A program made the position numbers and the translations under genes. Below are positions 472 to 18,508 of a stretch of DNA of 21,072 bases, one piece after another. The DNA is from a virus (Duplodnaviria; Heunggongvirae; Uroviricota; Caudoviricetes): the IMG/VR virus record IMGVR_UViG_3300014625_000019; one strand, given 5' to 3'. A model generated the notes under the pieces. The model was not told the DNA's origin and made no database searches. It saw nothing but the letters and a program-made list of their open reading frames with translations. How positions within the stretch are numbered: the first letter of the stretch is position 1; the number at the start of each line of letters is the position of its first letter.

Positions 472-489
472 AATATTAGGTAAAATAGA

Positions 490-2593: not shown

Positions 2594-3490
2594 CTATGAC
2601 TGGCTGTTTTCAGCAAGAGTCTTATCATCTAAAGAATTTATTTTCGAAATTCTTTTTAACTCATTAAGATAATCAACCTCGTTTTCCAAGAACCAATGAA
2701 GAACTTTAGAGTTACCAAGTAATTTAATAATATATGACTGGATTATAACGAATTTCAACATATCTGAACCATACTCGGTTTGAAGCTTTTTTGTTTCTTC
2801 CGAAGTTGTTGCCATTTCCTGTTCCAGACGAAGTATGGTTTTTTTTATGTCCTTTTTATAGGGAGTGTTTTTCCCTTTATTTATTATCATCGATGCCGGT
2901 GTTGCATCCAAGATGCTCATTGCAAATTTTTTACTATAATTATCAAAATTAATCATTGTACCGACTGCTTCAATTTGACGAATTGGTTTCATTTTCCTCA
3001 AAACATCAAATGTAGCCTTAGGTATTGGTTTATCAGAAAGTTTCGCAATCACACTTGGATCTATACCGTTCATCACATTAGCTTTATCTTTTATAGCATC
3101 AATAGATATGCCCAAAGCAGCACTAAGTTTTTCAATTGAAACTTTTGCTAAGGACTTGATTATCATTCTATGTTCTTCAACTACATTTATATGATTGACT
3201 TGTTTGTTAGGAGTGAACGCATCATCTATGCTCGAAAGTATACATGGAGCTTTTTCTATGCCTAAATCTTTTAAAGCCTCAACCCTCAAATGGCCATCGA
3301 GTATCTTAATGGCATCTTTATCTTTGTCATAGAACACTATTATTGGTTCAATAATACCTAAGCTTTCAATTGAGGTAACTATTTGATGGTATTTATGACT
3401 TAGCTTTACATTTTCTAACAATTCCTTAGAGGGAATTAACTTGTTAGTTTCTAAATAAATAAAATTGTCGCCAAAACGTATCTGAATCAT
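2594..3490 (-). CDS. ParB/Srx-fold DNA-binding protein (ParB-like N-terminal domain with LDGHLRVEA box, predicted HTH), 298 aa
   Basis: Start codon overlaps the stop of the upstream gene (ATGA at 3487-3490). Motif IIVFYDKDKDAIKILDGHLRVEALKDLG resembles the ParB/Srx G-x-x-R-x-x-A box. Helix-turn-helix-like segment SIEKLSAALGISIDAIKDK. Confidence 0.6.
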   Translation of the reverse strand: MIQIRFGDNFIYLETNKLIPSKELLENVKLSHKYHQIVTSIESLGIIEPIIVFYDKDKDAIKILDGHLRVEALKDLGIEKAPCILSSIDDAFTPNKQVNHINVVEEHRMIIKSLAKVSIEKLSAALGISIDAIKDKANVMNGIDPSVIAKLSDKPIPKATFDVLRKMKPIRQIEAVGTMINFDNYSKKFAMSILDATPASMIINKGKNTPYKKDIKKTILRLEQEMATTSEETKKLQTEYGSDMLKFVIIQSYIIKLLGNSKVLHWFLENEVDYLNELKRISKINSLDDKTLAENSQS

Positions 3491-4383
3491 TTTGATGCCT
3501 CTTTGTTTATTGGATTGAGGATCTGAGATGGCTGTTCTGATAGATTCTCTTGTTCAAGTATATTTTGAAAGCTTTTATTCATCATTATGATGTTAAAAAT
3601 CTCATTTACTATCAGCAAATTAGTTTTAATAAATTTAGAGTTGTTATAAACAGATTTATGTTCAGCGATACTATTTTCATAAAGCTCAATTAACTCCTCA
3701 GCAGTCATTCTTTTTGATGGTTTGTGATAATAAAACCCGGCTGCTTTTGCACCTTTATTCCCAATTGTTCGCTGATTTAGAATGTGTTTTATCTTTATAA
3801 TGTCTCGGCTTTTTATTAATTTTTTATCATATGCTTCGGTAAGAATATCTTGTGCTTCTTCAGTTTCACATCTTGCAAATTGCACTGCGAGATACAGAGG
3901 CAAATTCCCCCGTTCGACTGCAGAGAGAAGTTTATGCTCTCCCTTATCAAGAAGCATATTTATACTGCTCACCCAGTTCGATGAATACCCAGTAATCTCA
4001 CTTATTTCGGAGTCTGAAAGTCCTCTGTTTTTCATATCTTTTATTATCTGTAATAACTCATTGGAACGTGGTCTCCTCCTTGCAATGTTTTCAACCAAAC
4101 TCATAACATAAGCATCTTCTTCTGATACATCTCTTATAATTGCAGGAATAATGGTCTCACCTAATGCAACGAGAGCCTCTATTCTCCCTTGGCCACAAAT
4201 TAAAGCATATTTGAAGTCGTCTTCATCAATCGCTCTTACGCTTATAGGCTTGCTTAATCCTCTTTTTTTTATGCTTTCCTTAATTTCTTCATGCACTACC
4301 TTATTTCTAGTGCGCGGGTTAAGAAATTTTATTTTGGCAATTTCAATTTGGATTATTGGGAATTCATTTGATTCAGGCAGCAT
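3487..4383 (-). CDS. ParB/Srx-fold DNA-binding protein (ISVRAIDEDDFKYALICGQGRIEA box, predicted HTH), 298 aa; paralogue of the downstream gene
   Basis: Start overlaps the 3' end of the recombinase gene by 11 nt. SD-like GAGGG upstream of the ATG. ParB-like box ICGQGRIEALVALG. HTH-like LSDSEISEITGYSSNWVSSI. Confidence 0.6.
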   Translation of the reverse strand: MLPESNEFPIIQIEIAKIKFLNPRTRNKVVHEEIKESIKKRGLSKPISVRAIDEDDFKYALICGQGRIEALVALGETIIPAIIRDVSEEDAYVMSLVENIARRRPRSNELLQIIKDMKNRGLSDSEISEITGYSSNWVSSINMLLDKGEHKLLSAVERGNLPLYLAVQFARCETEEAQDILTEAYDKKLIKSRDIIKIKHILNQRTIGNKGAKAAGFYYHKPSKRMTAEELIELYENSIAEHKSVYNNSKFIKTNLLIVNEIFNIIMMNKSFQNILEQENLSEQPSQILNPINKEASK

Positions 4384-5929
4384 ATAGTTCCCTCACTTTC
4401 ATTCGAGTAATAATTTGTAGAAGTTTATCCAGATTATCAAATCTATAGAGATCTAATCGAATGTTGTTTGTTTCCGTCATGCACATTTTACTATATTCGT
4501 TTTCAATCTTTGGTATGATATAAAAATCAAGTGGTGTAATATTTTGTGAATCCATTCGTATAACAATTGTTATGTCTGCTTTCTGTGAGTTATCAAACCG
4601 GACTTTCCATCTAAGTTTACCCGATTTCATATGTGTGCATTTGGTAATAAGGACGGAAATTAAAAACTCATCATTGATGTAAAGCATTGGTGCATATTTA
4701 TATTCGTCTATATAGCAGTTGCTTTTTATAATTCCCCCCTTAAAATCCTCAATTATGCCTGAGTAAAATGATCTTAGTGCTTCATTTATTTGGATATAGC
4801 TGTAATCATGTTCTGGCTTATAACCAATCAAAGTATATGCTCTTAAAAGACCACCAAATCGGGTTCTGTAAACAGAAGATGAAGGGCCTGTATCATCTTC
4901 ATCAATGATAAAGCCAGATAGTTTTCCATTAGTTTCTAATTTTTGTTTTAGCTTTTCTAAAAGCTCTTCATTAGTCAAATGTACGGATCGGAGCTGAATT
5001 ATTTCTTGAGCTTTATTATATTTTTTCTTTGAAATAATGGGTTTGTATGCCTTGTCGCATCTAACCCATTCATTTTTTGGGTTTTTTACAAGCCTACTTT
5101 TTAGTTTAGATGAGGTTTTGTTATATATGTTATTTCCAATATATTTTTCATTTGTTAAGATTTGATGTATTTTTGCACGAGTCCATAATGTTCCATTTTC
5201 TGCAGGTATATTCTGTTCGTTTAGTCTCTCAGCAATAATGAATTCTGGCATGTTATCATCTATAAAGAGATCATAGATGCTATTTACAATTTTTATCTCA
5301 TTTTTTGGTCCAGGAATTAATATTACCCTATCTGTTTGAATACTCTTTCTTTTGCGGAAGCCCAATATTTCTTTAGCTATGCCATTTTCATCTACTAAAA
5401 GACGTCTCAGCCCATAACCAGCCATTCCGCCTTGATGATAACCAAGCTTTATTAAATTTACTTGCCCTATAAATACCTTTTCTGATAAATTCCTGCTGTG
5501 ATATGCAGCACTAGATCTTTTTATGTTCAGTATAACAGAAGACTCTAAAGGGAAATCTTTAGTGGGAATAGGTTCAGAACAGTATATAAGATCTACACCG
5601 TTTCTCTCAAATAGAAAGGAATAATATGCAGCTTCATCACTATTTTGAAAACGACCAAAACGGCTCACATCATAAAATAATACAGCCTGTATATCTATTT
5701 TCTTTTGTTCTACATCACTAAGTAACTGCTGCAAAGAATGCCGGCCTATGATACTGACTCCGCTCTTACCTGCATCATCGTAGGTATAAGCGATTTCCAT
5801 ATTGTTCTTTTCAGCATAATCTTTGATATATTCGGACTGATTATGTAAAGAATATTGCTGATGGTCGGTAGACATCCTCAAGTACTGTGCGACCCTAACT
5901 TTATGATTTTTATCATTTTCTCTAGCCAT
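4373..5929 (-). CDS. Large serine recombinase (resolvase/invertase-type catalytic domain plus recombinase domain), 518 aa
   Basis: N-terminal YLRMSTDHQ motif with the catalytic serine, followed by the DDAGKSG and VSRFGR motifs of the resolvase domain. Recombinase-domain-like WTRAKIHQILTNEKYIGNNIY. SD GAGG about 8 nt upstream of the ATG. No CxxC pairs seen in the C-terminal region. Confidence 0.8.
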   Translation of the reverse strand: MARENDKNHKVRVAQYLRMSTDHQQYSLHNQSEYIKDYAEKNNMEIAYTYDDAGKSGVSIIGRHSLQQLLSDVEQKKIDIQAVLFYDVSRFGRFQNSDEAAYYSFLFERNGVDLIYCSEPIPTKDFPLESSVILNIKRSSAAYHSRNLSEKVFIGQVNLIKLGYHQGGMAGYGLRRLLVDENGIAKEILGFRKRKSIQTDRVILIPGPKNEIKIVNSIYDLFIDDNMPEFIIAERLNEQNIPAENGTLWTRAKIHQILTNEKYIGNNIYNKTSSKLKSRLVKNPKNEWVRCDKAYKPIISKKKYNKAQEIIQLRSVHLTNEELLEKLKQKLETNGKLSGFIIDEDDTGPSSSVYRTRFGGLLRAYTLIGYKPEHDYSYIQINEALRSFYSGIIEDFKGGIIKSNCYIDEYKYAPMLYINDEFLISVLITKCTHMKSGKLRWKVRFDNSQKADITIVIRMDSQNITPLDFYIIPKIENEYSKMCMTETNNIRLDLYRFDNLDKLLQIITRMKVRELYAA

Positions 5930-6211
5930 GCACGAAACCTCATGGATGATTCAATACAATGTAGAGAATAAAATTGATCAATTTTTAACCAAATTCAACT
6001 CTTTTATCATCGATTAGAGCGAATTTGGTAAATCTTCGAGGTGTATGATAATCGAGAAGAGATGTGAATTATTTAGCTGATATGATCTACAGCTTTCGTT
6101 ATGTGGCCTCAAGGTAGTCATTCGTAAATGGCTATGCTTAGTCCACATAGGTTTATAGTGTGATTATTAATTCTTTAACTAAATCAAGATAGTTAACCCA
6201 TCATGGAAGAG

Positions 6212-7441
6212 TTATGCGGCAATAATTTTGTATTTTTGAGACGAAACAAAGTCACTCCACCACTGCATGAGAATCACCCGTTCTGTGAGATACTCTGCAC
6301 GATTGTAGGCTGCAATTATTTCATCTTTCTTCGAGTGGGCAAGGGCGGCTTCTAAGACATCAGTCCTAAATTTGCCAGACTCCTCCGCAGCCGTTCTGGC
6401 GATTGATCGCATACCGTGAGCTACAAGCTCACCTCCGAAACCCATACGGATTATGGCCGCATTAGCTGTTTGTTCATGCATGTGATTGAGTGGAGCTTTG
6501 ATACTGGGGAAAACCCACTCTCTATGCCCACTGATGGCTTTCATTAAATCCAAAACTCGCAAAGCTTCTTTGCTCAGTGGAACTTTGTGAGGCTTCTTCA
6601 TTTTCATAAACTCCGCTGGGATGTTCCACATGCCAGTTTCAATATCAATATCTGACCATCTTGTGCGAACAGCCTCACCAGGACGAACCCAAGTTAGCAA
6701 TTGCCATTCAATCAGCAATCGTGTCTCCATACGGACTGATGCGTTGTTTAACACTGTAAGGAAGCGGGGGAGTTCGGTTGGGGGCAGGGCTGGCATGTTC
6801 TGTTTCTTCGGCTTACTAAATCTCTGGGCAAGATTGTCAGCCGGATTGAATTCTATGAGTTCTTCTGTTGCTGCATAGCGGAAAATTTCATTCAGGCGGG
6901 ATATGATGCGGCGAAGTGTTTCAAGGACACCTCGTTTTTCTATGGGGTCTAAATGCTGTTTAAGCATTTTAGGCCGAATCTCTTTAATGGGAGTATCACC
7001 CAATGTGGGAAAGATATTTCTCTCCAGGCTTCGCCAGATGTCTTCTGCATGGTCTTGTGAGATACCTGAGGTCTTTACCTTCTCGTCCAACCATTTCCTT
7101 GCTACGGCTTGAAGAGTGTGTTCAATAGCACTCTTTAATGCCTTCGCCTTATTATTGTTATGGACTTGGGGATCAACACCATTTGCCAGTAAGGAGAGAT
7201 TTTCATCTCGTAAGGCTCTGGCTTTTGCAAGGGTAAGGTGAGGATAGGTCCCAAGGCTCATTTTTGTTCTTTTCTTGCTTACTGGTACTGCATACCTGAA
7301 ATACCAATTTTTCTTGCCACCTTTCGCCAAAGGAGCGATTCGTAGAATCAAACCATCCCCGTCGAACAAGTTGATTTCTTTATCGGCTGGCTTGGTGCTT
7401 TTGATTTCAGTGTCAGTGAGTTTCTTAGCGATTTTTGCCAT
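6212..7441 (-). CDS. int: P4-type tyrosine integrase (site-specific recombinase, tRNA/tmRNA-targeting family), 409 aa
   Basis: N-terminal arm-binding-like segment (LFDGDGLILRIAPLAKGGKKNWYFRY). C-terminal catalytic region with the R...H-x-x-R...Y arrangement (HGMRSIARTAA, AAYNRAEY). Architecture parallels CP4-57 IntA as I recall it. Lies directly next to the ssrA 3'-end fragment. Confidence 0.85.
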   Translation of the reverse strand: MAKIAKKLTDTEIKSTKPADKEINLFDGDGLILRIAPLAKGGKKNWYFRYAVPVSKKRTKMSLGTYPHLTLAKARALRDENLSLLANGVDPQVHNNNKAKALKSAIEHTLQAVARKWLDEKVKTSGISQDHAEDIWRSLERNIFPTLGDTPIKEIRPKMLKQHLDPIEKRGVLETLRRIISRLNEIFRYAATEELIEFNPADNLAQRFSKPKKQNMPALPPTELPRFLTVLNNASVRMETRLLIEWQLLTWVRPGEAVRTRWSDIDIETGMWNIPAEFMKMKKPHKVPLSKEALRVLDLMKAISGHREWVFPSIKAPLNHMHEQTANAAIIRMGFGGELVAHGMRSIARTAAEESGKFRTDVLEAALAHSKKDEIIAAYNRAEYLTERVILMQWWSDFVSSQKYKIIAA

Positions 7442-7537
7442 TTGGGACCCTCGGTTTTTGGACCCATCTTAGAGGGTCCCATTCAGGGTGCCATAACTTA
7501 TAGTTCTCAGCAATTCGCACTGGACGACAATAGACGT

Positions 7538-7570
7538 AAAAAAGCCCGCAGAGCTTGTGCTGTGCGGGCT
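7538..7570 (-). terminator. Rho-independent terminator (GC-rich hairpin plus T-run on the minus strand) downstream of the ssrA fragment
   Basis: Minus strand reads AAGCCCGCACAGCACAAGCTCTGCGGGCTTTTTT: a 7-bp GC-rich stem (7544-7550 with 7563-7569) followed by six T. Confidence 0.5.
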
Positions 7571-7605
7571 TAGTAGACTTCATTGTACTTCAAACAACTA
7601 AAAAG

Positions 7606-7637
7606 TGGTGGAGCTGGCGGGAGTTGAACCCGTGTCC
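7606..7637 (-). other. ssrA: 3'-terminal fragment of ssrA (tmRNA): T-arm, acceptor 3' strand and CCA; putative att core / junction repeat
   Basis: Reverse complement GGACACGGGTTCAACTCCCGCCAGCTCCACCA matches my recollection of the E. coli tmRNA 3' end (GGACGCGGGTTCAACTCCCGCCAGCTCCACCA) at 31 of 32 positions. Sequence further 5' in RNA sense (window coordinates above 7637) does not continue as tmRNA, so this is a fragment, not a gene. Confidence 0.55.
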
Positions 7638-8064
7638 ATAGTTATGTAATTCATTGAATTTAAATAGCCAAATATTGTTGATTTTACAAGCGGCTCTTTT
7701 GCGGAACTTTTTCTGTCCTGTTACTGTCTTACTATTTATTTTAAAATAGTTTCATTTGGAATTAATGGTTTGTGGTTGCAGTTTCGGAGATAGATAGCAT
7801 TTTTTGCTAAAAAATATTTTTATAAAAAAATGTGTGTAAAAATGATGTTATGCACAGATTTATGCACAGAGGCTTTGTGATAAACCAGATTGTTTTGGAT
7901 AAGTTTGTTTTTTTGTGATTTGTCAACAATATTATTGACTCTTGTTACTAAAGTGAGTGTTTTCTAAGGTGGTCAGAAGTTGTCCCTTCATGTAATCTTA
8001 TTAGCCATAAAGAACAAAAAATAATTCAACATCATTACCAACTATTTGTAAGATAAGGTTTTTA

Positions 8065-8880
8065 ATGTTGCAGCCAGCAAAAAAAGCATCAGTTATTAGC
8101 GCGCGGCTAACTAAATACCTCAAAGATGGAGTGAGGATTGATGACTTTAGCTTTAGAAGGATGTTACGTGAGATTGAAGCACTTAGAGATCCTGTCTCTG
8201 AGGACTATCTTTTAGCGTTGGTCTATGGTGCACATGGCCAAGTGAATGAGGCGATAGGCTTCTTTGAGCGTTCCTTGCAGGTATGCCATAATGAGGTTGT
8301 TGCAAAGAATTTTCTTGTTTTCTTGTCAGATTACGGTACGTTGAAGAAAAGCTTTGAAACAAGCATTAAGCTTGCTGAAAGCTTCATATCCCCGTTTATT
8401 TATCTTCAAGCTTATGAAAACTCCCTCTTTATGGGGAAGATGGCGTTGGCGGAGAAGTATTTCCAGTCATACTCTAAATTGTTCGGAGATAAGGAGCCTG
8501 AAAAAATGGACAACAATTTTGATGAAGTTGTTTCCCAGGTCGAATCCTTTAAGCAACGTGCCGATCTTTCTGGTTTAGAATATGAACTTATTTTCAATAA
8601 TGTAGCCAATGTCATGGATTCTCAGAAGGTTCATCTTTCGGGAATGCGTTTTTATAATATTTCGGAAGAGAAAGTGAATGCGATTGTATTCATGACAAAG
8701 TCTTCTGATGCTGAACAAATCGCTGATATGAATATTGAGCTTGCTTTTTCAATGGCTGAGCACGATTGTTTAGTCGGTAAAGATTTTGCTGTTTGGTTTG
8801 AATGTAAAGACACACATATTGAGCAGAATGCTATCTCCGAATTAGGTCTGATTACCCGGAGGGTTGCACATGCCGGTTAA
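8065..8880 (+). CDS. Hypothetical protein, 271 aa (first gene of a two-gene moron operon)
   Basis: ATG start preceded by an AAGG SD. Long AT-rich leader upstream (7640-8064). Overlaps the downstream gene by 11 nt. No recognisable motif. Confidence 0.6.
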   Translation: MLQPAKKASVISARLTKYLKDGVRIDDFSFRRMLREIEALRDPVSEDYLLALVYGAHGQVNEAIGFFERSLQVCHNEVVAKNFLVFLSDYGTLKKSFETSIKLAESFISPFIYLQAYENSLFMGKMALAEKYFQSYSKLFGDKEPEKMDNNFDEVVSQVESFKQRADLSGLEYELIFNNVANVMDSQKVHLSGMRFYNISEEKVNAIVFMTKSSDAEQIADMNIELAFSMAEHDCLVGKDFAVWFECKDTHIEQNAISELGLITRRVAHAG

Positions 8881-9253
8881 TAGTCAAGATTTTCTCGGTT
8901 TTGCAAAAGACTGTCATCAACGTAATGACGAAATCGGCTATCGAAATGCTATAGCAAGATCCTACTATGGCGCTTACCATCATGTCTTGCCTTGTATGGT
9001 AAACGGGCCGAAAGACAGTCATCAGGGGCTAATCAATTATTTGCAGGGCGATGCTTCAAGAGGAAGTGAAGTATATGAAGCTAGATATCTAAAAGGGATT
9101 AGTTTTATCCTGAGTCAACTTAAAGCTCAGAGGATTGTTGCAGACTATCGACTTGATCAATCGGTCACTTCTAAACAGTCTGAAGTTGCGATTCTAACAA
9201 CTGAGAGGCTCTTTGCTAAGTGTACGGAAATGCTTAAATCGAGAGCCTCCTAA
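8870..9253 (+). CDS. Hypothetical small protein, 127 aa, with an R-x6-H motif (possible HEPN-like fold)
   Basis: ATG at 8870 preceded by GGAGGG (8857-8862) at 7-nt spacing; the track ORF begins at an in-frame TTG at 8864. Motif AIARSYYGAYHH matches the minimal HEPN R-x(4-6)-H signature, but it is N-proximal, so the assignment is tentative. Confidence 0.55.
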   Translation: MPVNSQDFLGFAKDCHQRNDEIGYRNAIARSYYGAYHHVLPCMVNGPKDSHQGLINYLQGDASRGSEVYEARYLKGISFILSQLKAQRIVADYRLDQSVTSKQSEVAILTTERLFAKCTEMLKSRAS

Positions 9254-9258
9254 TTGAT

Positions 9259-9283
9259 AAAGCCACTTAAGTGGCTTTTTTTG
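9259..9283 (+). terminator. Rho-independent terminator hairpin (AAAGCCAC-TTAA-GTGGCTTT plus T-run), possibly bidirectional
   Basis: Perfect 8-bp inverted repeat with a 4-nt loop followed by TTTTT on the plus strand and an A-run on the other side. The int stop codon (9267-9269) lies in the loop. Confidence 0.5.
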
Positions 9284-10439
9284 TGATATTGCTGGTCGTA
9301 TTACCGTCATATTCCTTTAAATATGAACCATAATGACGAAATAACATTTCCGGCCCTTTATGCCCCATTTGAGCTGCAAGCCAAAACAGGTTTGCTCCCC
9401 GGCTGATATGGCGGGTGGCGAATGTATGCCTAGTTTGATATGGATTTCTGTAACGAATACCTGCTTTTCGCAATGTTGGCACCCATGCTTTTTTCCTGAT
9501 TGCATCAGCACTTGCCCAAGGCTTATTGGTCTTTGGATCTTCAAAGACAGTAGTATCCTTCATGAATGTAAATGGCTTCTGATTTATCAGCGCCAACATT
9601 GCCTCTTCTGTCAGTTCAACTTTCCGAGTACCTGCTTTTGTCTTTGTCCCTTTGATAACACCGACAACACTTGCGCTCTGGACATGGGCAGTTTTTCCAA
9701 CAAAGTCGATATCACGCCATCGAAGGGCACATAATTCAGAACTACGCAGGCCTGTATGTATAGCGAACCGGAACAGATTTTCCCATTGTTTGTTTCCGGC
9801 TGCTGCTAGTAATGCATCAACTTCTGCTGGTGATAGCGGATCAACTACGTAGCTGCTTTCTGCTTCTGACTTATCACTTTGGTAGCGCGAAGCTGTTACT
9901 AACGATACGGGGTTAATTTGAAGTACCCCATCGGTCACGGCTTCATCAAGTGCTGACCGCAGGAAAGATAACTGGTTGCGAATTGTTTTTAAGGTCGTTT
10001 TCTGATTTTGAATCCACGCTTTCAGGGTTGCTGGTGTTAATTCACTTGCAGGGCAAATGTGAAGTGAGGCTAACGCACTACGGCATTTTTTATAGCCACC
10101 AATCGTAGAGGGTGAAAGTTTTCTTGTTTCGCAGATTTCAAGATATTCGTCCAGGTACATCTTTACCGTTTTGCCTGCAGCAGCATTACCAAAAATTTTC
10201 AAACGAGCAGAACGGGGAAAATATTCTGCATAAATGAATGTTCCCCTTTCGATCTTATTATGGATTTCGCCGAGTGTACGCTCGGCGTATTTAATGTTCT
10301 TTGGTGTTACTTCCAGATTGGAAAGCGGCTCACGACATCTAACTCCTTTGTAGGTGAAAGTTATATTGATCGTTTCTCCCTGGCGGTGTTTCCTGATTGT
10401 TACGCCGCGCGGTAGTTTGAGCAGTTTTGTCTGGCCCAT
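9267..10439 (-). CDS. int: Lambda-type tyrosine integrase, 390 aa
   Basis: Catalytic signature GLRSSELCALRW (Arg), RHTFATRH (His-x-x-Arg), LFRHYGSY (Tyr). N-terminal arm-binding-type region. 5' end overlaps xis, as in lambda. Confidence 0.85.
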   Translation of the reverse strand: MGQTKLLKLPRGVTIRKHRQGETINITFTYKGVRCREPLSNLEVTPKNIKYAERTLGEIHNKIERGTFIYAEYFPRSARLKIFGNAAAGKTVKMYLDEYLEICETRKLSPSTIGGYKKCRSALASLHICPASELTPATLKAWIQNQKTTLKTIRNQLSFLRSALDEAVTDGVLQINPVSLVTASRYQSDKSEAESSYVVDPLSPAEVDALLAAAGNKQWENLFRFAIHTGLRSSELCALRWRDIDFVGKTAHVQSASVVGVIKGTKTKAGTRKVELTEEAMLALINQKPFTFMKDTTVFEDPKTNKPWASADAIRKKAWVPTLRKAGIRYRNPYQTRHTFATRHISRGANLFWLAAQMGHKGPEMLFRHYGSYLKEYDGNTTSNITKKAT

Positions 10440-10606
10440 TTTGCAACCTCACTAAGATCAATCCACCTCTCCTTAACGCCTTCAACCTTTAAAACCTGAA
10501 CACCTTCACGCCAAACACCGCGCTGTACACGTTTGTTTATTGCTTCAGGAGTTTCGCCAGTTTCTTTGCAATAAGTTGAGATAGGAACACAATCGAGGTT
10601 CAGCAT
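10400..10606 (-). CDS. xis: Excisionase (Xis-like small DNA-binding protein), about 68 aa
   Basis: Small basic protein immediately upstream of and overlapping int. Internal ATG at 10606 has GGAG 6 nt upstream; the track ORF extends to 10645 but lacks an SD there. Loose resemblance to lambda Xis at the N-terminus. Confidence 0.6.
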   Translation of the reverse strand: MLNLDCVPISTYCKETGETPEAINKRVQRGVWREGVQVLKVEGVKERWIDLSEVAKWARQNCSNYRAA

Positions 10607-10647
10607 ACGTTTCTCCATTATCCCGTCTGCACACGGGAGCAACATTA

Positions 10648-11514
10648 TTAACGAATAGTGTCGTTACTTTGAAGTACAGCAAATGCCATTAATACTTCTA
10701 AAGTATATCTTCTATAAAATTTAACAAAACCAACATAGAAAACATAGACGAAGAAAAAGCTAAGCATTATTGAAAGTAAACTATAAAGATAATCACTATG
10801 AGTACATAATCGATAAATAAAGGTTGGAACTGATACCCAAAATGAAATTATAAAGATTAAACATATGTTTCTGCAAAAACCATATAATGCAACATAGTTT
10901 TGAATTTTTGTTTGATGTTGTTTTGAAAACTCATAAACATAATGATATGCCAATCTGAAGAGATCATCATCAAGTCCGTTTTTATCTTGTAATAATTGGC
11001 GATTTGTTATGAACTTTTTCTCATAACCTTCTTTGATCATTAACCATGTTGTATTAGCTAAATGAAATGGTAGAGATTGAGAATAACATAGTTTTTGTGT
11101 TATAAAATCCCATAGTATTATTGGGCATAATACGCATTTGATTATGCGATTCTTTATTTTTGTTTTTTTATCAGCGCTTCTCTCATCGCATGATGGGCTA
11201 CAAATGCTTTCTGAGGTATCTATCAATTTTTTAAATAGATATTTGGAAGGATATCCTAATTCTTTATTCATGTATTTTTCGATAAAAAATGCTGACGTGA
11301 TAGAAATAAAATGTCCAGCTATATAAGATATAATAACTATTGAAGCGTAGTTCAAAATGCCAAAGATTTGACTTTGACCTCTGAGCAATTCACTTAAGTC
11401 AATAACAATATCTAGATCGAATGTCAAACCACAGAAATACATTAATAGGATAAAAAAACCACCTGGTATTAAATATCCAAGAAAGTCATAGAATGAGAAT
11501 GGATTTTGATTCAT
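10648..11514 (-). CDS. Predicted integral membrane protein (about 4 TM segments, Cys-containing central soluble region), unknown function; AT-rich moron
   Basis: Hydrophobic stretches FLGYLIPGGFFILLMYFCGLTF, IFGILNYASIVIISYIAGHFISITSAFFI, ICLIFIISFWVSVPTFIY, LLSIMLSFFFVYVFYVGFV. ATG at 11514 with GGAG 7 nt upstream; the track ORF starts at TTG 11538. Stop abuts the xis start. Confidence 0.6.
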   Translation of the reverse strand: MNQNPFSFYDFLGYLIPGGFFILLMYFCGLTFDLDIVIDLSELLRGQSQIFGILNYASIVIISYIAGHFISITSAFFIEKYMNKELGYPSKYLFKKLIDTSESICSPSCDERSADKKTKIKNRIIKCVLCPIILWDFITQKLCYSQSLPFHLANTTWLMIKEGYEKKFITNRQLLQDKNGLDDDLFRLAYHYVYEFSKQHQTKIQNYVALYGFCRNICLIFIISFWVSVPTFIYRLCTHSDYLYSLLSIMLSFFFVYVFYVGFVKFYRRYTLEVLMAFAVLQSNDTIR

Positions 11515-11622
11515 TGTTGCTCTCCAATAATTTTTCAATTTGTAATATAACCTATATCTATATGTTAATAAATTACTTATATGTTCTTTTATGGCAGAGT
11601 TTGAATTCGTACGTGCTGATTT

Positions 11623-12147
11623 TTACGACTCAGTTAACTCTTTAAAGCGTTCCATAAACATCCCATAGGTATGGCCTGGCGACAGTGGAATAACTTTGAA
11701 CATCTCTGTTGCCGGGATACCTTCCAGTACGGGCCAGAAAGAGCCATCATCAAGCCCGAGATCGCGGCGTTCGGTTGCCAGCATGATGAGATCGGCATAT
11801 TTCACGGGCGTACTCATAACCGGGGGTAACCCGTATTTCTCACGGATTACGGCGTCTATTTTTTCTTCCATCCGTTTATAGTCAGGAAGAAGGCGTTTCA
11901 GTGGAGCCGGGATGTCCTGGCAATACGCTTCTGTTGCATCATGCATTAACGCTTCAAAAGCAAATTCCTGCGGTACCAGCTGGCTGCAAAGCACCGCATG
12001 TTGGGCGACGCTGTAGAAGTGTGAAAGATGGCCGGCAAAGCGACAGATATTTGAAAGGGAAACCGCGATATCGTTAATATCGATGTTGTCTTTATTTATC
12101 CTGTCATAATAAAAATGTTTCCCGGAAAAAGTTTTAATAAATGACAT
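11623..12147 (-). CDS. yfdR: HD-domain phosphohydrolase (YfdR-like 5'-deoxynucleotidase family)
   Basis: HD signature H...SVAQH...L(x)nLMHDATEAY with downstream acidic residues. ATG at 12147 with GGAG 6 nt upstream; the track ORF starts at GTG 12159. Name assigned from recollection of the CPS-53 prophage yfdR; not verified by search. Confidence 0.7.
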   Translation of the reverse strand: MSFIKTFSGKHFYYDRINKDNIDINDIAVSLSNICRFAGHLSHFYSVAQHAVLCSQLVPQEFAFEALMHDATEAYCQDIPAPLKRLLPDYKRMEEKIDAVIREKYGLPPVMSTPVKYADLIMLATERRDLGLDDGSFWPVLEGIPATEMFKVIPLSPGHTYGMFMERFKELTES

Positions 12148-13165: not shown

Positions 13166-13528
13166 TTAACGACCTGCTGCGCGGAGTTTTCCGTCAGGTT
13201 CACCGGCAAGAGTCAGTAATTGTCCCTGGTCTTCCTGCAGAATAGTCAGGCGACCACCGCGATTGACATACATCGGCGTTTCGGTGGTGTCTTCTTCGGA
13301 AATTTTCCCGCGGTTAGTTGGGCGAACATATGAGAGTTTGTGTTTGATTTTCACACGGTTCTCATCAAACGGTTCGATTTCCAGGTTGAGCGAGACCTTA
13401 CCTTTGGTTTTCGTGTTCATCACACCGGAAGCGACTTCACTGAGAACTGCGCCGATTTTGGTTTCAAATACGCCGCCGTCCAGCTCCCCGATAAATGCCT
13501 GCACATCAGTACTGCGTTCGCTAGCCAT
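13166..13528 (-). CDS. yfdP: YfdP-like small prophage protein, 120 aa
   Basis: ATG at 13528 (MASERSTDVQ...) with GAGGAG SD 9 nt upstream. The longer track ORF (to 13846) extends into a GC-rich region with Arg/Cys-rich, non-protein-like translation, so the shorter start is preferred. Confidence 0.6.
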   Translation of the reverse strand: MASERSTDVQAFIGELDGGVFETKIGAVLSEVASGVMNTKTKGKVSLNLEIEPFDENRVKIKHKLSYVRPTNRGKISEEDTTETPMYVNRGGRLTILQEDQGQLLTLAGEPDGKLRAAGR

Positions 13529-13576
13529 TTTGCTGCTCCTCATCATATCGACCCTGCAAGGTCGGTTAGTTTCTCC

Positions 13577-13665
13577 ACAAAACAGAGAAGAACACCTGCG
13601 GTGACTGCCGCCCGGATGGATTGGGTTATGAGCCCGTCGTCCGGTGATGCTCTTCTCTGTTTTGT
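13577..13665. repeat. Long inverted repeat (18-bp arms, 17 of 18 complementary) enclosing a 53-nt GC-rich segment; potential large hairpin
   Basis: ACAAAACAGAGAAGAACA (13577-13594) pairs with TGCTCTTCTCTGTTTTGT (13648-13665). Lies in an apparently non-coding GC-rich segment upstream of yfdP. Confidence 0.5.
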
Positions 13666-13929
13666 AAAAAGGACGGTACCAGCCGGAAGCAAGGGTACAA
13701 GCTGGTACCGCCAGGACTACACACAGCATAAAGTTGTGGTGCCGGGTGCCTCCCGGTGCCTGGCGAAGGTTGCACACCAGGCGGGTGGGTATCCACAGAA
13801 GGTCGACTGTCAGCCTCAACCTTAACCCGCGTGCGCTGAGCCGCATTCACCACAACGCTAAGGATTCTCTCTGGTTGAAAATACTTAGCTGTTATGTGCC
13901 TGCTTTTAGCCACATCAGGCGAGGTGGAC

Positions 13930-13981
13930 CTGGTTATTCCCCAACAACAAGGATTCGGTTAATCTGGTTATCCCCAACAAC
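13930..13981 (+). repeat. Two direct repeats CTGGTTAT(T)CCCCAACAAC separated by 15 nt, immediately upstream of the 13997 start codon; possible regulator binding sites
   Basis: Copies at 13930-13948 and 13964-13981 differ by a single extra T. Confidence 0.5.
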
Positions 13982-15840: not shown

Positions 15841-16410
15841 ATGAGGCTAATCGTGGGTAAGCATCACTGGAAAATAGAAAAACAGCCTGAGTGGTACGTG
15901 AAAGCTGTCAGAAAAACTATCGCGGCGTTGCCGGGTGGTTACGCTGAAGCGGCTGATTGGCTCGATGTAACAGAAAACGCTTTATTCAACCGCCTTCGTG
16001 CAGATGGCGATCAGATTTTCCCGCTGGGATGGGCAATGGTTTTACAGCGTGCTGGTGGCACTCACTTCATTGCTGATGCTGTGGCGCAGTCTGCAAATGG
16101 CGTCTTTGTGTCTCTTCCTGACGTCGAGGATGTGGACAACGCCGATATTAACCAGCGTCTGCTGGAAGTCATTGAACAGATCGGCAGTTATTCAAAACAG
16201 ATTCGTTCAGCAATCGAAGACGGTGTAGTGGAACCGCATGAGAAGACAGCAATTAACGACGAGCTGTATCTCTCAATTTCGAAGCTGCAGGAGCATGCAG
16301 CACTTGTCTACAAAATTTTTTGCATTTCAGAAAGTAATGACGCCCGCGAGTGTGCAGCTCCGGGCGTCGTGGCGTCGATTGCTTCTGGTTGTGGAGAAAC
16401 TAACGCATGA
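15841..16410 (+). CDS. Putative phage regulatory protein (CII/CP76-like), 189 aa; C-terminus may be altered by a deletion junction
   Basis: Position immediately downstream of cro and weak resemblance to the 186-type CII family (recollection only). Its 3' end abuts a portal fragment. Confidence 0.4.
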   Translation: MRLIVGKHHWKIEKQPEWYVKAVRKTIAALPGGYAEAADWLDVTENALFNRLRADGDQIFPLGWAMVLQRAGGTHFIADAVAQSANGVFVSLPDVEDVDNADINQRLLEVIEQIGSYSKQIRSAIEDGVVEPHEKTAINDELYLSISKLQEHAALVYKIFCISESNDARECAAPGVVASIASGCGETNA

Positions 16411-17263
16411 ACAGTTTAACAACACACTACCGAAGCTTAACAGTAGCTGGGAGCCGGTCTATCAGGTCACATTCCCGGATGGCTCCACGGATGTACTGAG
16501 CCAGGAGGATATCTGGCATGTGCGCACGCTGACGCTGGACGGACTGGTGGGGCTGAATCCCATCGCCTATGCCCGCGAGGCAATATCGCTGGCGGCAGCG
16601 ACCGAAGAGCACGGGGCCAGACTGTTCAGCAATGGCGCGGTGACGTCGGGTGTGTTGCGTACAGAGCAGACGCTGTCAGATCAGGCTTACGAGCGCCTGA
16701 AGAAAGATTTTGAGGAGCGTCACACCGGGCTTGGCAATGCTCACCGCCCGATGATCCTTGAGATGGGGCTGGACTGGAAGTCGATGGCGCTGAACGCCGA
16801 GGACAGCCAGTTCCTGGAAACCCGCAAGTTTCAACTTGAAGAAATCTGTCGTCTGTTCCGGGTACCGTTGCACATGGTGCAGAACACCGATCGCGCCACC
16901 TTCAACAATATCGAAGAACTGGGGCTCGGATTTATCAACTATTCACTGGTGCCGTATCTGACCCGCATCGAACAGCGGATCAACACCGGACTGGTACGAA
17001 AAAGTAAGCAGGGCGTTTATTACGCCAAATTTAACGCCGGGGCGTTACTGCGCGGGGATATGAAGTCCCGTTTTGAAGCCTACGCCACCGGGATTAACTG
17101 GGGAATTTACTCTCCCAATGACTGCCGCGACCTGGAAGATATGAATCCGCGTCCCGGTGGTGATGTCTATCTCACACCGATGAACATGACCACGAAACCC
17201 TCCGATGGCAGTAAAGCCGGTAAGCAGAAGGATAACGCCAATGCAGACGAAACAACGTCTTGA
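16400..17263 (+). pseudogene. HK97-family phage portal protein, 5'-truncated fragment (C-terminal about 285 codons only)
   Basis: Portal-like segment (GLGNAHRPMILEMGLDWKSMALNAEDSQFLETRKFQLEEICRLFRVPLHMV). The upstream part of the track ORF is an alternate frame of the CII-like gene, so roughly the first 120-130 residues of a normal portal are absent. Confidence 0.55.
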
Positions 17264-17588
17264 TGTACCGCTGAGTCTGAAATCTGTCAGTGACTCCGGT
17301 GAGTTTGAAGGGTATGGCTCCGTCTTTGGTGTAAAGGACAGCCACGATGATGTGGTGATGTCCGGGGCATTTGCTGCTTCCCTGCGGGCGTGGAGTGACA
17401 GAAAAGCGTTACCTGCGCTGCTCTGGCAGCACCGCATGGATGAACCCATCGGTGTTTACACCGAAATGAAGGAAGACGATGTCGGGCTTTACGTCAGGGG
17501 ACGGTTGCTTATTGATGATGATCCCCTCGCAAAACGCGCACATGCACACATGAAGGCCGGTTCGTTACGGCGACGGCGCAGACGCTGA
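17241..17588 (+). pseudogene. HK97-family prohead protease, 3'-truncated fragment
   Basis: ATG at 17241 with AAGGA SD. N-terminal protease-like motifs (FEGYGSVFGVKDSHDDVVMSGAFAASL; LLWQHRMDEPIGVY; EDDVGLYVRGRL). The frame ends abruptly in RRRRRR* where the conserved GLSIG-type region is expected. Confidence 0.5.
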
Positions 17589-18508
17589 TGTCATCCTGTT
17601 CTGCACTGGATGACTGCATCAGTGACAGTTTCAGTAGTTTCAGTATCGATGGCGTGGCAGATTTTGTGCAGAACGACGTCGTCGGTAATGCCAGCACAAT
17701 GCTTGGGTATGTTTCTGATGCGATGAAAGTGGTGGATTCTGCCGTATCGGATGCCGCCAGGCTGTTGCAGGGGGATATCTCGGTACTTCTGCCGCCGCCA
17801 TCGTCAGGCAAAAATTTCGTTGAGCAGGTGCAGAAAATGTGGCGTACCGGGAAACGCCTTTATGGTAACGCCAGCGACCTGGTCACCATGATCAAAACGC
17901 TTTCCGGTGTCAGCCTCGGCAGCGATCTGCAACCGCGCGGCGTCTGGAAAACGGACAGTAAAACCACCGCCACGGCTACGCAGCAGCGTAACGTGGTTGC
18001 CAGCACCCTTCGTACGACCGCAATCAGCGAAGCGGCGTATGCCGTCACCCGATTGCCTGCGCCAACAACTTCCGCGGTGATGCAGAATGCCGCAGTGGGG
18101 CAGGCAACAACACCTGCGCAGAGCACTGGCTGGCCTTCCGTCACGCATCCGGCACTGAACAATGCACCGGCGGTGAAAAACACAGTTGACCTGCCGACGT
18201 GGGAAGAACTGACTGACATTCGCGACACACTGAATACGGCAATTGATAAGGAGTTGTCCCGTACAACCAGTGATGCGCTGTTTCTGGCGCTGCGCCGGGT
18301 GAAAGCAGATCTGAATGCGGATATCAACACGCGCCTTGAACAGTCTGCACGGATCATTCAGCGCACGCCGGATGAGGTTTTACCCGCGCTGGTGCTGGCG
18401 GCGACCTGGTTTGATAACGCGGCGCGTGACGCGGACATTATCCGGCGTAATGCCATTACGCATCCCGGCTTTGTGCCGGTGATCCCTCTGAAGGTGCCAG
18501 TGCAATGA
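17588..18508 (+). CDS. Mu-like tail protein (gpN/DNA-circulation-like, C-terminal portion); probably 5'-truncated
   Basis: Sits immediately upstream of and coupled (ATGA overlap at 18505-18508) to a Mu gpP-like gene. The N-terminus lacks the conserved DNA-circulation N-domain. Family assignment is by gene order and recollection, low confidence. Confidence 0.4.
   Translation: MSSCSALDDCISDSFSSFSIDGVADFVQNDVVGNASTMLGYVSDAMKVVDSAVSDAARLLQGDISVLLPPPSSGKNFVEQVQKMWRTGKRLYGNASDLVTMIKTLSGVSLGSDLQPRGVWKTDSKTTATATQQRNVVASTLRTTAISEAAYAVTRLPAPTTSAVMQNAAVGQATTPAQSTGWPSVTHPALNNAPAVKNTVDLPTWEELTDIRDTLNTAIDKELSRTTSDALFLALRRVKADLNADINTRLEQSARIIQRTPDEVLPALVLAATWFDNAARDADIIRRNAITHPGFVPVIPLKVPVQ

What the first reader, a model, noticed from the sequence alone, without database searches (positions are those of the whole stretch)
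10648..11514. AT-rich 4-TM membrane protein inserted immediately upstream of xis
This gene is strikingly AT-rich relative to the neighbouring int/xis and yfdR. It encodes a protein with two N-terminal and two C-terminal hydrophobic segments flanking a Cys-containing soluble region, and its stop abuts the xis start. Compositionally foreign membrane proteins in the early-left region are frequent candidates for superinfection exclusion or abortive infection. I recognise no family.
Basis: inference. Interest (0 to 1): 0.5.

Follow-up and report, generated by a model that had tools for sequence, protein, structure and literature searches.

The report
Prophage-borne stand-alone Csx27-family membrane protein
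The AT-rich gene upstream of xis is real and encodes a four-helix inner-membrane protein that is a distant relative of Csx27, the uncharacterised membrane partner of the CRISPR enzyme Cas13b, carried here as swappable prophage cargo whose role (probably in phage-versus-phage conflict) has never been tested.

Summary
Window 10648-11514 (minus strand) is a 288-aa gene with 28.5% GC, against 44-47% in its neighbours. It has a 2+2 transmembrane layout around a cytoplasmic helical domain and is under purifying selection.

It is a large family (PHROG 12528; 659 clusters at 50% identity, many phyla) homologous to genuine Cas13b-adjacent Csx27: hhalign 97.6%, E 3e-12. All four conserved motifs are shared. 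No Cas13b or CRISPR array is present, so this is a stand-alone branch, not Csx27 proper.

It is mobile cargo. A 990-bp cassette (10638-11627) replaces two small genes found in a sister prophage. Diverged copies (78%, 50%) sit at the same spot, just upstream of xis-int modules of at least three integrase types. A 42% homologue, paired with a DUF4760 protein, is the third most common cargo of the P2 gpA-gpQ anti-phage hotspot (Rousset 2022, untested).

Conserved residues cluster at the cytoplasmic membrane face. No conserved partner gene, solved structural relative, holin link or SieA link was found.

Function is unproven. My best guess (about 0.4) is a membrane-level exclusion or abortive-infection module. 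The main rivals are an immune dampener and a plain channel.

The parts
10648..11514 (-). CDS, 288 aa plus stop: stand-alone Csx27-family four-TM inner-membrane protein (identical to RefSeq WP_001075212.1, PHROG 12528)
   Evidence: ORF and sequence. PHROG 12528 matched full length, E 8e-174. RefSeq 'hypothetical protein' in 205 E. coli genomes. hhalign to true Csx27 97.6%, E 3.2e-12. dN/dS 0.24.
11278..11514 (-). Residues 1-79: conserved N-terminal motif (P5 F6 S7 Y9 D10 F11 L12 G13 Y14 P17 G18), TM1, variable acidic periplasmic loop, and TM2 carrying the conserved stripe Y64-G67-H68-S74-E79
   Evidence: Hydropathy. Conservation. This module aligns to Csx27 positions 3-72 and weakly to PDC-M48A.
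10900..11277 (-). Residues 80-205: lysine/arginine-rich cytoplasmic helical domain. It holds the GYPSKYL motif, a variable Cys-containing loop (99-115), a hydrophobic Pro131-kinked helical pair (116-139), and the D..FR..YHY..E...H..K motif leading into TM3
   Evidence: Positive-inside count: family mean K+R 18.3 against D+E 11.7. AF2 secondary structure and pLDDT. Conservation. The stretch is shorter in true Csx27.
10651..10899 (-). Residues 206-288: QNYVALYGFxR motif at the cytoplasmic start of TM3 (Y211 and R215 are invariant across the superfamily), TM3, short periplasmic turn, TM4, and the cytoplasmic KFYRRxTLE tail
   Evidence: The same motifs occur in Cas13b-adjacent Csx27 (Y162, R166 and R223 invariant in A5).
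11515..11627 (-). AT-rich 5' leader belonging to the cassette, with GGAG at 11525-11522. No sigma-70 consensus promoter was detected
   Evidence: Sequence. Promoter scan negative in this stretch. Cassette boundary.
10638..11627 (.). The swappable cassette. In E. coli AVS0362 the same int-xis and yfdR flanks (97-98% identical) enclose two small genes (216 and 363 bp) instead
   Evidence: blastn breakpoints. Annotation of L084. Spread of partial matches. No flanking repeats.
10400..10606 (-). Context: excisionase (xis), 41 nt downstream of the gene
   Evidence: phrog_2917 excisionase, E 8e-45. RefSeq coordinates transferred from L001.
9267..10439 (-). Context: tyrosine integrase (Arm-DNA-bind_2 plus Phage_integrase)
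   Evidence: Pfam.
11623..12147 (-). Context: yfdR (HD-domain 5'-deoxynucleotidase), the upstream neighbour on the same strand
   Evidence: Pfam and PHROG. RefSeq annotation.

Best explanation
What it is (shown, confidence about 0.95). The gene encodes an inner-membrane protein with both termini in the cytoplasm, four transmembrane helices in a 2+2 arrangement, and a roughly 125-residue helical cytoplasmic domain between TM2 and TM3. It belongs to a large, sporadically distributed and consistently AT-rich family. That family is a stand-alone branch of the Csx27 superfamily, whose founding members are the membrane accessory proteins encoded next to Cas13b in type VI-B1 CRISPR loci.

In Enterobacteriaceae it travels as exchangeable temperate-phage cargo. 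It is the last gene before xis-int in several unrelated lambdoid prophages. Paired with a DUF4760 single-TM protein, it also occupies the P2 gpA-gpQ hotspot.

How it probably works (inferred, confidence about 0.4). The residues conserved across the whole superfamily sit at the cytoplasmic ends of the helices: S7, P17-G18, G67, Y211, R215 and R268/269. They include no catalytic-type set. I therefore read the protein as an oligomeric, gated membrane channel or scaffold that is operated from the cytoplasmic side, with the central domain serving as its built-in sensor or regulator.

As prophage cargo it most likely acts in conflict with other phages at the inner membrane. It would either open or perturb the membrane when infection is sensed (abortive infection, as with RexB or Csx28), or interfere with incoming DNA crossing the membrane (exclusion).
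For: Identity:
- The PADLOC Csx27 model is hit by the window protein (E 1.4e-5) and by 77 of 112 diverse family members (best E 2.2e-10).
- None of 28 reversed-sequence controls hits it.
- I recovered genuine type VI-B loci from metagenomes. Their large ORFs are Cas13b (E about 1e-194) and the adjacent small ORFs are Csx27 (E about 1e-51).
- The family HMM finds those Csx27 proteins (E 4e-9 to 1e-3 among 1162 ORFs). A 7-sequence Csx27 HMM scores the window protein at 32.6 bits.
- Profile-profile comparison gives 97.6% probability, E 3.2e-12, over 171 columns.
- The N-terminal FSxYD..PG, the Y..F.R at TM3 and the YR after TM4 are shared motifs.

Topology: hydropathy, the positive-inside count and a confident AF2 model agree.

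Cargo status:
- cassette swap;
- same position upstream of non-homologous xis-int modules for the 100%, 78% and 50% variants and for a Klebsiella phage;
- in 39 of 66 IMG/VR loci the largest ORF within 3.2 kb downstream is an integrase, of three architectures;
- lower GC than the flanks in 75 of 76 genome loci;
- present in only 205 of 5426 complete E. coli genomes.

Conflict role:
- A 42% homologue plus DUF4760 is system #3, with 1102 occurrences, in the P2 hotspot that holds old/tin and other validated defences (PMC9122126).
- Most untested genes in the sister P4 hotspot gave protection when cloned: 6 of 8. In P2, 15-32% of unknown proteins are predicted antiviral (bioRxiv 10.64898/2026.02.27.708500).
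- The gene is kept intact in decayed prophages under purifying selection.
- Its relatives are CRISPR- or defence-candidate-associated (Csx27, tm_4, PDC-M48A).
Against: - No experiment exists for this family, and Csx27 itself has no known mechanism. Its only reported phenotype is repression of Cas13b interference (bioRxiv 10.1101/092577; still 'inhibitory Csx27' in a 2026 review).
- The P2 system #3 was catalogued but not cloned or tested.
- In 80 non-enterobacterial genome loci the neighbours show no conserved partner and only a thin defence or mobile signal: integrase 4, type I RM S subunit 2, AAA_21 2, out of 146.
- No promoter of its own was found. The gene lies in the early-left transcription unit, so expression in the lysogen, which exclusion needs, is not shown.
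- The periplasmic loops are variable. That fits poorly with direct recognition of incoming phage parts in the periplasm.
- Channel formation is inferred from architecture only. Fold searches found no solved relative.
Confidence: 0.45

Rival explanations
1. Immune dampener or anti-defence factor. Like Csx27, which lowers Cas13b interference, the phage copy is made early from the leftward operon and restrains a host or co-resident abortive-infection or dormancy response, so that the phage can finish its cycle or the lysogen avoids self-harm.
For: - Csx27 repressed both BzCas13b and PbCas13b, by up to 1e5-fold in MS2 assays.
- The gene lies on the early-left strand, where lambdoid phages keep anti-defence genes. 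P22's ral, abc1/abc2 and gene 17 are in the same operon.
- No own promoter was detected.
- The conserved face is cytoplasmic, which suits binding a cytoplasmic partner.
Against: - E. coli has no Cas13b, and no target is known.
- The family is mostly chromosomal and stand-alone across many phyla.
- The P2 gpA-gpQ hotspot is known for defence rather than counter-defence cargo.
- The gene persists in defective prophages that no longer make phage.
Confidence: 0.15
2. Ordinary membrane channel or transport component with no role in conflict, for example the ssDNA channel proposed for the Csx27 family. It would be carried by phages as a neutral or mildly useful passenger.
For: - Makarova et al. 2019 proposed that Csx27-family proteins form channels for ssDNA uptake or degradation. 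I take this from PMC7642515 and PMC11662929, because the original paper is not held.
- Neighbours in other phyla include housekeeping loci such as glycosyltransferases, RNR and FAA hydrolase.
- No defence model other than Csx27, tm_4 or PDC-M48A is hit.
Against: - Distribution is sporadic and the gene is AT-rich relative to its flanks in 75 of 76 loci.
- It repeatedly sits in phage cargo slots and an anti-phage hotspot.
- No competence-machinery genes are next to it. The only such hit was one CoiA-like domain among 66 viral neighbours.
- E. coli is not naturally transformable under usual conditions (my own knowledge).
Confidence: 0.15
3. Lytic-cycle helper of the prophage itself. It would be a membrane protein made after induction that modifies host physiology for the phage's benefit, for example membrane energetics, block of division, or exclusion of secondary infection during lytic growth as with T4 Imm.
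For: It has the same strand and operon position as the non-essential ea/kil/cIII genes of lambdoid phages; P22 EaC occupies the equivalent slot. No own promoter was found.
Against: - It is dispensable, since sister prophages carry other genes in the slot.
- It is retained in prophage remnants without lytic genes.
- Most family members are not in phages.
Confidence: 0.1
4. Holin-like or lysis-timing membrane protein.
For: Only that it is a small multi-TM phage membrane protein.
Against: - At 288 aa with a large cytoplasmic domain, it is located at the integration end and far from any lysis cassette.
- There is no endolysin or spanin neighbour in any of the contexts examined.
- It has no Pfam or PHROG lysis hit.
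- It is common in non-phage chromosomal loci.
Confidence: 0.03

Closest known systems
Csx27, membrane accessory protein of type VI-B1 CRISPR-Cas13b loci (Smargon et al. 2017; extended family of Makarova et al. 2019)
   Same: Homologous: hhalign 97.6%, E 3.2e-12, with reciprocal HMM hits and PADLOC model hits. The architecture is the same: N-terminal FSxYD..PG motif, TM1-TM2, cytoplasmic helical domain, Y..F.R at the start of TM3, TM4, then a YR tail.
   Different: - No cas13b or CRISPR array is nearby; the gene stands alone in a prophage of E. coli.
- It is about 40-80 residues longer, mostly in the cytoplasmic domain.
- It has subfamily-specific conserved H68, E79, H191 and H200 that Csx27 lacks.
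- Identity is only about 20%.
- Whether it can repress Cas13b is unknown.
P2-hotspot 'system #3' (DUF4760 + 4-TM protein), Table S5B of Rousset et al. 2022 (PMC9122126)
   Same: The 4-TM component is a 42%-identical full-length homologue with the same motifs. It is also phage cargo in a hypervariable slot.
   Different: - There it is preceded, 42 nt upstream, by a DUF4760 single-TM protein. No DUF4760 gene is in the window or the other loci.
- It sits between gpA and gpQ of P2-like phages, not next to xis-int.
- It was catalogued without a note on Csx27 homology and was not tested.
PDC-M48A (PADLOC candidate system; Lactamase_B + short 4-TM protein, Rousset Table S5B #34)
   Same: Weak similarity over the N-terminal motif plus TM1-TM2 (5 of 112 members hit the model; hhalign E 0.0015). 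It is also P2-hotspot cargo.
   Different: It is about 160 aa without the central domain, and it is paired with a metallo-beta-lactamase-fold protein. The relationship is marginal (probability 17% with a single-sequence template).
RexB (lambda) and Csx28 (type VI-B2): membrane effectors that depolarise the cell on infection
   Same: Working analogy only. They are small helical inner-membrane proteins of defence systems; RexB also has four TM helices.
   Different: No sequence or fold relationship was detected. Both need a cytoplasmic sensor partner (RexA, Cas13b), whereas this gene is solo.
P22 SieA, P22 SieB, T4 Imm: superinfection-exclusion membrane proteins
   Same: Working analogy only: prophage- or phage-encoded inner-membrane proteins that protect against other phages.
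   Different: P22 SieA and SieB are unrelated by HMM (E > 0.09). sieA and sieB have mapped promoters of their own, and none was found here.
P22 EaC and lambda ea genes (positional equivalents)
   Same: Same slot: the last early-left gene, ending at the start of xis.
   Different: EaC is a soluble 211-aa protein with no similarity.

Membership tests
Csx27 family (broad sense: the 4-TM superfamily founded on Csx27) | Significant profile-level similarity to bona fide Cas13b-adjacent Csx27 proteins | tested here: met
   hhalign A1 against A5 gives 97.6%, E 3.2e-12, over 171 columns. The A1 HMM finds Csx27 next to Cas13b. The A5 HMM scores the window protein at 32.6 bits. PADLOC Csx27 is hit by 77 of 112 members against 0 of 28 reversed controls. 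A5 members are verified as Csx27 and their neighbours as Cas13b.
Csx27 family (broad sense: the 4-TM superfamily founded on Csx27) | Four predicted TM helices, 2+2, around a cytoplasmic segment | tested here: met
   Hydropathy of the window protein and of Csx27, the AF2 model and charge distribution.
Csx27 family (broad sense: the 4-TM superfamily founded on Csx27) | Shared sequence motifs (N-terminal FSxY[DE]..PG; Y..[FG]F.R at TM3; [FW]YR after TM4) | tested here: met
   Conservation maps and alignments.
Csx27 family (broad sense: the 4-TM superfamily founded on Csx27) | Operon association with natural-transformation, ubiquitin-like or WYL genes, as reported for the extended family by Makarova 2019 (known here only through citing papers) | tested here: not met
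   421 neighbour ORFs fall into 392 clusters with no recurrent partner. The Pfam top list of the 146 immediate neighbours shows none of these families. The original paper is not held.
Csx27 proper (type VI-B1 CRISPR accessory protein) | Encoded next to cas13b and a type VI-B CRISPR array | tested here: not met
   The window neighbours are xis, int and yfdR. The eight window proteins scanned with PADLOC gave no Cas13b hit, and no neighbouring gene is annotated as Cas13b. No array was seen in the 10500-11800 repeat scan.
Csx27 proper (type VI-B1 CRISPR accessory protein) | Represses Cas13b-mediated RNA interference | not testable with these tools
   The phenotype comes from Smargon et al. and needs a Cas13b/MS2 assay.
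P2-hotspot system #3 (DUF4760 + 4-TM) | 4-TM component homologous | tested here: met
   42% identity over 272 residues.
P2-hotspot system #3 (DUF4760 + 4-TM) | DUF4760 partner immediately upstream | tested here: not met
   tblastn with the DUF4760 protein finds it only in L003. The window's upstream neighbour is yfdR, with a 108-nt gap.
Superinfection-exclusion proteins (P22 SieA/SieB type) | Sequence relationship to a characterised Sie protein | tested here: not met
   A1 and A5 HMMs against all P22 ORFs give best E 0.09-0.4.
Superinfection-exclusion proteins (P22 SieA/SieB type) | Expressed from the repressed prophage (own promoter) | tested here: inconclusive
   The consensus scan finds no sigma-70 site in 11515-11627. 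That scan is crude, and AT-rich leaders can hide weak promoters.
Superinfection-exclusion proteins (P22 SieA/SieB type) | Blocks entry or growth of superinfecting phage | not testable with these tools
   Needs plaque, injection and survival assays.
Holins | Small protein in the late lysis cassette next to an endolysin | tested here: not met
   The gene is at the integration end of the early-left operon. No lysis genes are adjacent in any context, and no lysis family is hit.
MotA/ExbB/TolQ stator-like proteins (considered because of the same 4-TM layout with a large TM2-TM3 cytoplasmic domain) | Fold similarity to solved MotA, PomA or ExbB | tested here: not met

The most novel reading that the evidence does not exclude
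Stand-alone Csx27-like proteins, alone in lambdoid prophages or paired with DUF4760 in P2-like phages, are a widespread and so far unrecognised phage-borne membrane module of inter-phage conflict. They would be either a one-gene exclusion or abortive-infection system, or a phage-deployed damper of host dormancy responses. If so, the E. coli copies would give the first genetically tractable handle on what the Csx27 family does, which has been open since 2017.
Probability: 0.35. Interest if true: 0.7.

Novelty: new variant of a known kind. Interest (0 to 1): 0.5.

Why it matters
Csx27 was the first accessory protein reported to modulate Cas13b, and nine years on it still has no mechanism. This work shows that a sister branch of the family is common, swappable cargo of E. 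coli temperate phages. It is in 205 of 5426 complete genomes for this allele group alone, in more than 1000 contigs for the 78% variant, and it is the third commonest P2-hotspot cargo.

This does three things:
- it links two literatures that had not been joined, the Csx27 family and the phage defence-hotspot catalogues;
- it offers native E. coli proteins and lysogens (including CFT073) in which the family's function can be tested directly;
- it names specific residues to mutate (R215, Y211, R268/R269, G67, and the subfamily-specific H68, E79, H191, H200).

If the gene turns out to be an exclusion or abortive-infection factor, it adds a widespread single-gene membrane defence. If it turns out to be a dampener, it would be a phage-captured immune regulator.

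Tried and rejected
- Curated family searches: Pfam, NCBIfam and PDB sequence searches, with the single sequence and with the 112-sequence profile, gave nothing.
- MotA/ExbB: a faint Foldseek resemblance, tempting because the topology is the same, was rejected as too weak.
- Composition artefact: the Csx27 hit could have been due to TM composition. This was rejected by the reversed-sequence control and by the independent Csx27 set.
- Conserved partner gene: all-against-all BLAST of 421 neighbours, plus Pfam and PADLOC scans of the 146 immediate neighbours, found none.
- Domain fusions: longer family members only have extra TM helices or low-complexity tails.
- Own promoter or terminator: none convincing.
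- Flanking direct or inverted repeats marking an insertion: only AT-rich chance matches.
- tRNA at the island borders: none.
- Homology to P22 SieA, SieB or EaC: none.
- Literature: searches on the protein accession and on DUF4760 found nothing useful. The key Makarova 2019 paper and the Mol Cell version of Smargon 2017 are not held, so statements about the extended family's contexts rest on citing papers.
Full report
**1. The observation.**
The feature is a real gene on the minus strand. The ATG is at 11514, the stop at 10650-10648, and the product is 288 aa. A GGAG lies seven bases before the ATG. The start MNQNPFSFYDF coincides with the start of the family consensus, so the longer TTG start at 11538 is unlikely.

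GC is 28.5% and GC3 is 21.8%. The neighbours int, xis, yfdR and yfdQ have 44-46% GC and 38-49% GC3.

Hydropathy gives four helices at about residues 12-32, 50-78, 209-232 and 243-266, plus a weaker hydrophobic stretch at 124-142.

The cysteines are there but are not conserved. They lie in the most variable, least confidently modelled loop.

The stop abuts only the longest possible xis ORF. RefSeq places the xis start 41 nt further on, and the excisionase profile begins at residue 10 of the long ORF.

dN/dS against a 78%-identical variant is 0.24, so this is a coding gene under constraint.

**2. The gene is a swappable cassette.**
A sister prophage in E. coli AVS0362 has the same int-xis (97% identical) and yfdR-yfdQ (98% identical). 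Between them it carries two small genes. Homology breaks at window 10637 and resumes at 11628, so the exchanged unit is the ORF plus its 108-nt leader. No repeats mark the ends.

The identical protein (WP_001075212.1, annotated 'hypothetical protein') is in CFT073 and 204 other complete E. coli genomes out of 5426.

**3. A large family.**
The protein matches PHROG 12528 (unknown function) end to end. An exhaustive HMMER scan found 659 representative clusters at E <= 1e-3, 369 of them at E <= 1e-10, nearly all 265-310 aa.

A genome scan gave 80 loci in Bacteroidota, Gamma-, Beta- and Deltaproteobacteria, Bacillota, Chloroflexota, Acidobacteriota and others.

A 112-sequence alignment has nine invariant residues: F6, Y14, G18, Y64, G67, E79, H191, R215 and K265. 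It shows four conserved blocks:
- the N-terminal QNPFSLYDFLGYLIPG;
- SY..GH.LS..SS.TIE.Y at the end of TM2, followed by GYPSKYLL;
- D.FR..YHY..E...H..K.QNYVALYGF.R leading into TM3;
- KFYRRFTLE after TM4.

Longer members only add TM helices or low-complexity tails. The gene is more AT-rich than its flanks in 75 of 76 loci, by ten points on average.

**4. Structure and topology.**
AlphaFold2 with this alignment gives a confident all-helical model (pLDDT 89.9, pTM 0.89).

The central segment is rich in Lys and Arg (family mean 18.3 against 11.7 acidic), and the tail begins KFYRR. The two short loops are poor in positive charge. Both termini and the central domain are therefore cytoplasmic.

All conserved blocks lie at the cytoplasmic ends of the helices. 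The periplasmic halves and loops are variable.

**5. Relationship to Csx27.**
The one database lead was the PADLOC model for Csx27, the membrane protein encoded beside Cas13b in type VI-B1 CRISPR loci. The window protein hits it at E 1.4e-5, and 77 of 112 family members hit it, the best at E 2.2e-10.

TM proteins can match each other through composition alone. I therefore scanned 28 reversed sequences, and none hit.

To test against real Csx27, I searched metagenome contigs for two adjacent repeats of the type VI-B form. I then searched the 1162 ORFs of the 120 loci with the family HMM. The only hits were small four-TM ORFs lying 4-13 nt from ORFs of 1124-1213 aa beside the arrays. PADLOC confirmed the large ORFs as Cas13b (E about 1e-194) and the small ones as Csx27 (E about 1e-51).

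An alignment of seven such Csx27 proteins, compared with the family alignment, gives 97.6% probability and E 3.2e-12 over 171 columns. An HMM built from the seven scores the window protein at 32.6 bits in two pieces, which cover TM1-TM2 and the pre-TM3-to-tail region.

The motifs correspond:
- (K/P)FSxY(D/E)..PG at the N-terminus;
- Y(Y/H)Y.(E/Y)...K..Q at the end of the cytoplasmic domain;
- an invariant Tyr and Arg at the start of TM3 (Y211 and R215 here; Y162 and R166 in Csx27);
- an invariant Arg after TM4.

H68, E79, H191 and H200 are specific to the window's branch.

The protein is thus a member of the Csx27 superfamily, but it is not Csx27 proper. No cas13b and no array are present.

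**6. Genomic context.**

*6a. Diverse bacterial genomes.* In the 80 genome loci there is no conserved partner. The 421 neighbouring ORFs fall into 392 BLAST clusters. Pfam and PADLOC scans of the 146 immediate neighbours give only scattered integrases (4), glycosyltransferases (3), type I RM S subunits (2) and the like.

*6b. Enterobacterial prophages.* Here the position is strikingly constant.
- The 100%, 78% and 50% variants, and a 52% copy in Klebsiella phage P7641, all sit directly upstream of a small excisionase-like gene. In three of the four cases an integrase follows. The excisionases and integrases belong to different families.
- Of 66 IMG/VR loci with a sizeable ORF within 3.2 kb downstream, that ORF is a tyrosine integrase in 39. 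The architectures are Arm-DNA-bind_2 (24), Phage_int_M (10) and lambda-type Arm (5). In six more loci a larger ATPase ORF was picked up in that window at 7250-9034, which leaves room for an int-sized gene in between that I did not check.
- P22 EaC occupies the equivalent slot.

*6c. The P2 hotspot.* In P2-like phages a 42% homologue lies between gpA and gpQ. Rousset et al. showed this region to be a hotspot of anti-phage systems (PMC9122126).
- Their Table S5B lists exactly this protein, paired with a DUF4760 single-TM protein, as system #3 with 1102 occurrences. There is no functional note, and it is absent from their cloned set.
- In phage vB_EcoM-705R2 the DUF4760 gene lies 42 nt upstream of the homologue and is unannotated in the record.
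- No DUF4760 gene accompanies the window gene.
- A short four-TM protein paired with a metallo-beta-lactamase-fold protein in the same table is PADLOC candidate PDC-M48A. It shares the N-terminal module weakly.

*6d. Retention in decayed prophages.* The 78% variant sits in a remnant without an integrase next to zur-dinF-lexA, in more than 1000 contigs. In this window, homology to intact relatives ends at 16432, where a portal fragment and Mu-like baseplate genes of 55-60% GC begin.

**7. How it probably works.**
Shown: the protein's identity, its topology, its cargo status, and the cytoplasmic location of its conserved surface.

Inferred: everything about activity. The superfamily-wide invariant residues (Ser, Pro-Gly, Gly, Tyr, Arg, Arg) do not look catalytic. 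That favours a channel, gate or scaffold over an enzyme.

What is known of Csx27 is only that it lowers Cas13b interference in E. coli. Secondary sources add that the extended family was proposed to form ssDNA channels. A 2026 review still has no mechanism.

Several facts point the same way:
- the hotspot location;
- the swappable slot;
- the sporadic, AT-rich distribution;
- retention in dead prophages;
- the precedent of RexB and Csx28 as membrane effectors;
- a high success rate when unknown hotspot genes are tested (6 of 8 in P4; 15-32% of P2 unknowns predicted antiviral).

I therefore rate a membrane-level conflict role (abortive infection or exclusion) as most likely, at about 0.4.

Against it:
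- no promoter of its own was found;
- the gene sits in the early-left operon;
- the periplasmic face is variable;
- it has no similarity to SieA or SieB;
- the defence signal around non-phage copies is thin.

The rivals are an immune dampener modelled on Csx27's only known phenotype (0.15), a plain channel (0.15), a lytic-cycle helper (0.1) and a holin (0.03).

**8. Novelty and verdict.**
The Csx27 family has been reported to extend beyond CRISPR loci, according to papers citing Makarova et al. 2019, so this is not a new kind of protein.

As far as I could check, three things are new:
- a distinct, enlarged, stand-alone branch is common temperate-phage cargo in E. coli and its relatives;
- it occupies a fixed xis-proximal slot across unrelated integration modules;
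- it is the same protein that hotspot catalogues list as an anonymous '4 TM' gene.

I file it as a new variant of a known kind and score interest at 0.5. It is not surprising enough to rank high without a phenotype. It does make the open question of what Csx27-family proteins do directly testable in E. coli.

Noticed in passing
window 8065-8880 and 8864-9253 (+ strand): Two overlapping genes lie between the prophage end and int: phrog_17809 (weak TPR hit) and phrog_5176 (weak PADLOC HEPN_IX hit, E 1.4e-3). The pair is conserved with the prophage in CFT073 and WP2-S18-ESBL-07. It could be a second cargo, toxin-antitoxin or defence pair at the att-proximal end.
   Followed up: partly
window 61-7441: A separate AT-rich (30-35% GC) integrative island lies next to the prophage. 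It holds an HxsA-like fragment (61-471), a DUF6119/TIGR04141 protein (490-2097), two ParB/RepB-like genes (2594-4383), a large serine recombinase (4373-5929) and a P4-type integrase (6212-7441). In strain WP2-S18-ESBL-07 the same integrase flanks different cargo (an ATP-binding protein plus a response-regulator receiver-domain protein).
   Followed up: partly
window 16238-21072, junction near 16432: Homology to intact relatives of this prophage stops at 16432. The cII/ymfL-like gene is followed by a portal-protein fragment (Pfam positions 94-321 only) and Mu-like baseplate genes (GpP, Gp45, Gp46) at 55-60% GC. The element is therefore a truncated or mosaic, e14-like prophage.
   Followed up: partly
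window 13166-13950: This is a GC-rich (50-55%) stretch with long overlapping ORFs on both strands. RefSeq annotates only yfdP and a frameshifted pseudogene in the equivalent region of related strains.
   Followed up: no
L003 (Escherichia phage vB_EcoM-705R2, ON470623) 4464-4958 (+): The DUF4760 gene that partners the Csx27-like gene is not annotated in the GenBank record. The record instead calls small ORFs on the opposite strand (4448-4857).
   Followed up: yes
L109, L111, L114, L116, L117, L126 (IMG/VR), about 7250-9034: A 594-aa AAA_15/AAA_21 ATPase ORF (OLD/PARIS/Gabija-like domain set) begins about 1.4 kb downstream of the Csx27-like gene, beyond where xis-int lies in sister contigs. It could be a further defence gene near the prophage end.
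   Followed up: no
L001 (NZ_AP021944) 23248-24132: In the intact relative of this prophage, a KwaB-like (Kiwa) gene and a small partner gene sit just after the Q antiterminator. This is another cargo slot of the same phage lineage.
   Followed up: no
L183, L229, L208, L186 (metagenome type VI-B1 loci): csx27 lies 4-13 nt from cas13b. It is upstream in three loci and downstream in one. Sizes range from 206 to 259 aa, so gene order in VI-B1 loci is not fixed.
   Followed up: partly
L086-L090 (E. coli, 78% variant): The variant sits in an integrase-less prophage remnant beside zur-yjbJ-dinF-lexA. The remnant also carries a SocA/Panacea-domain gene pair and a PyocinActivator-family small gene in the xis position.
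   Followed up: no
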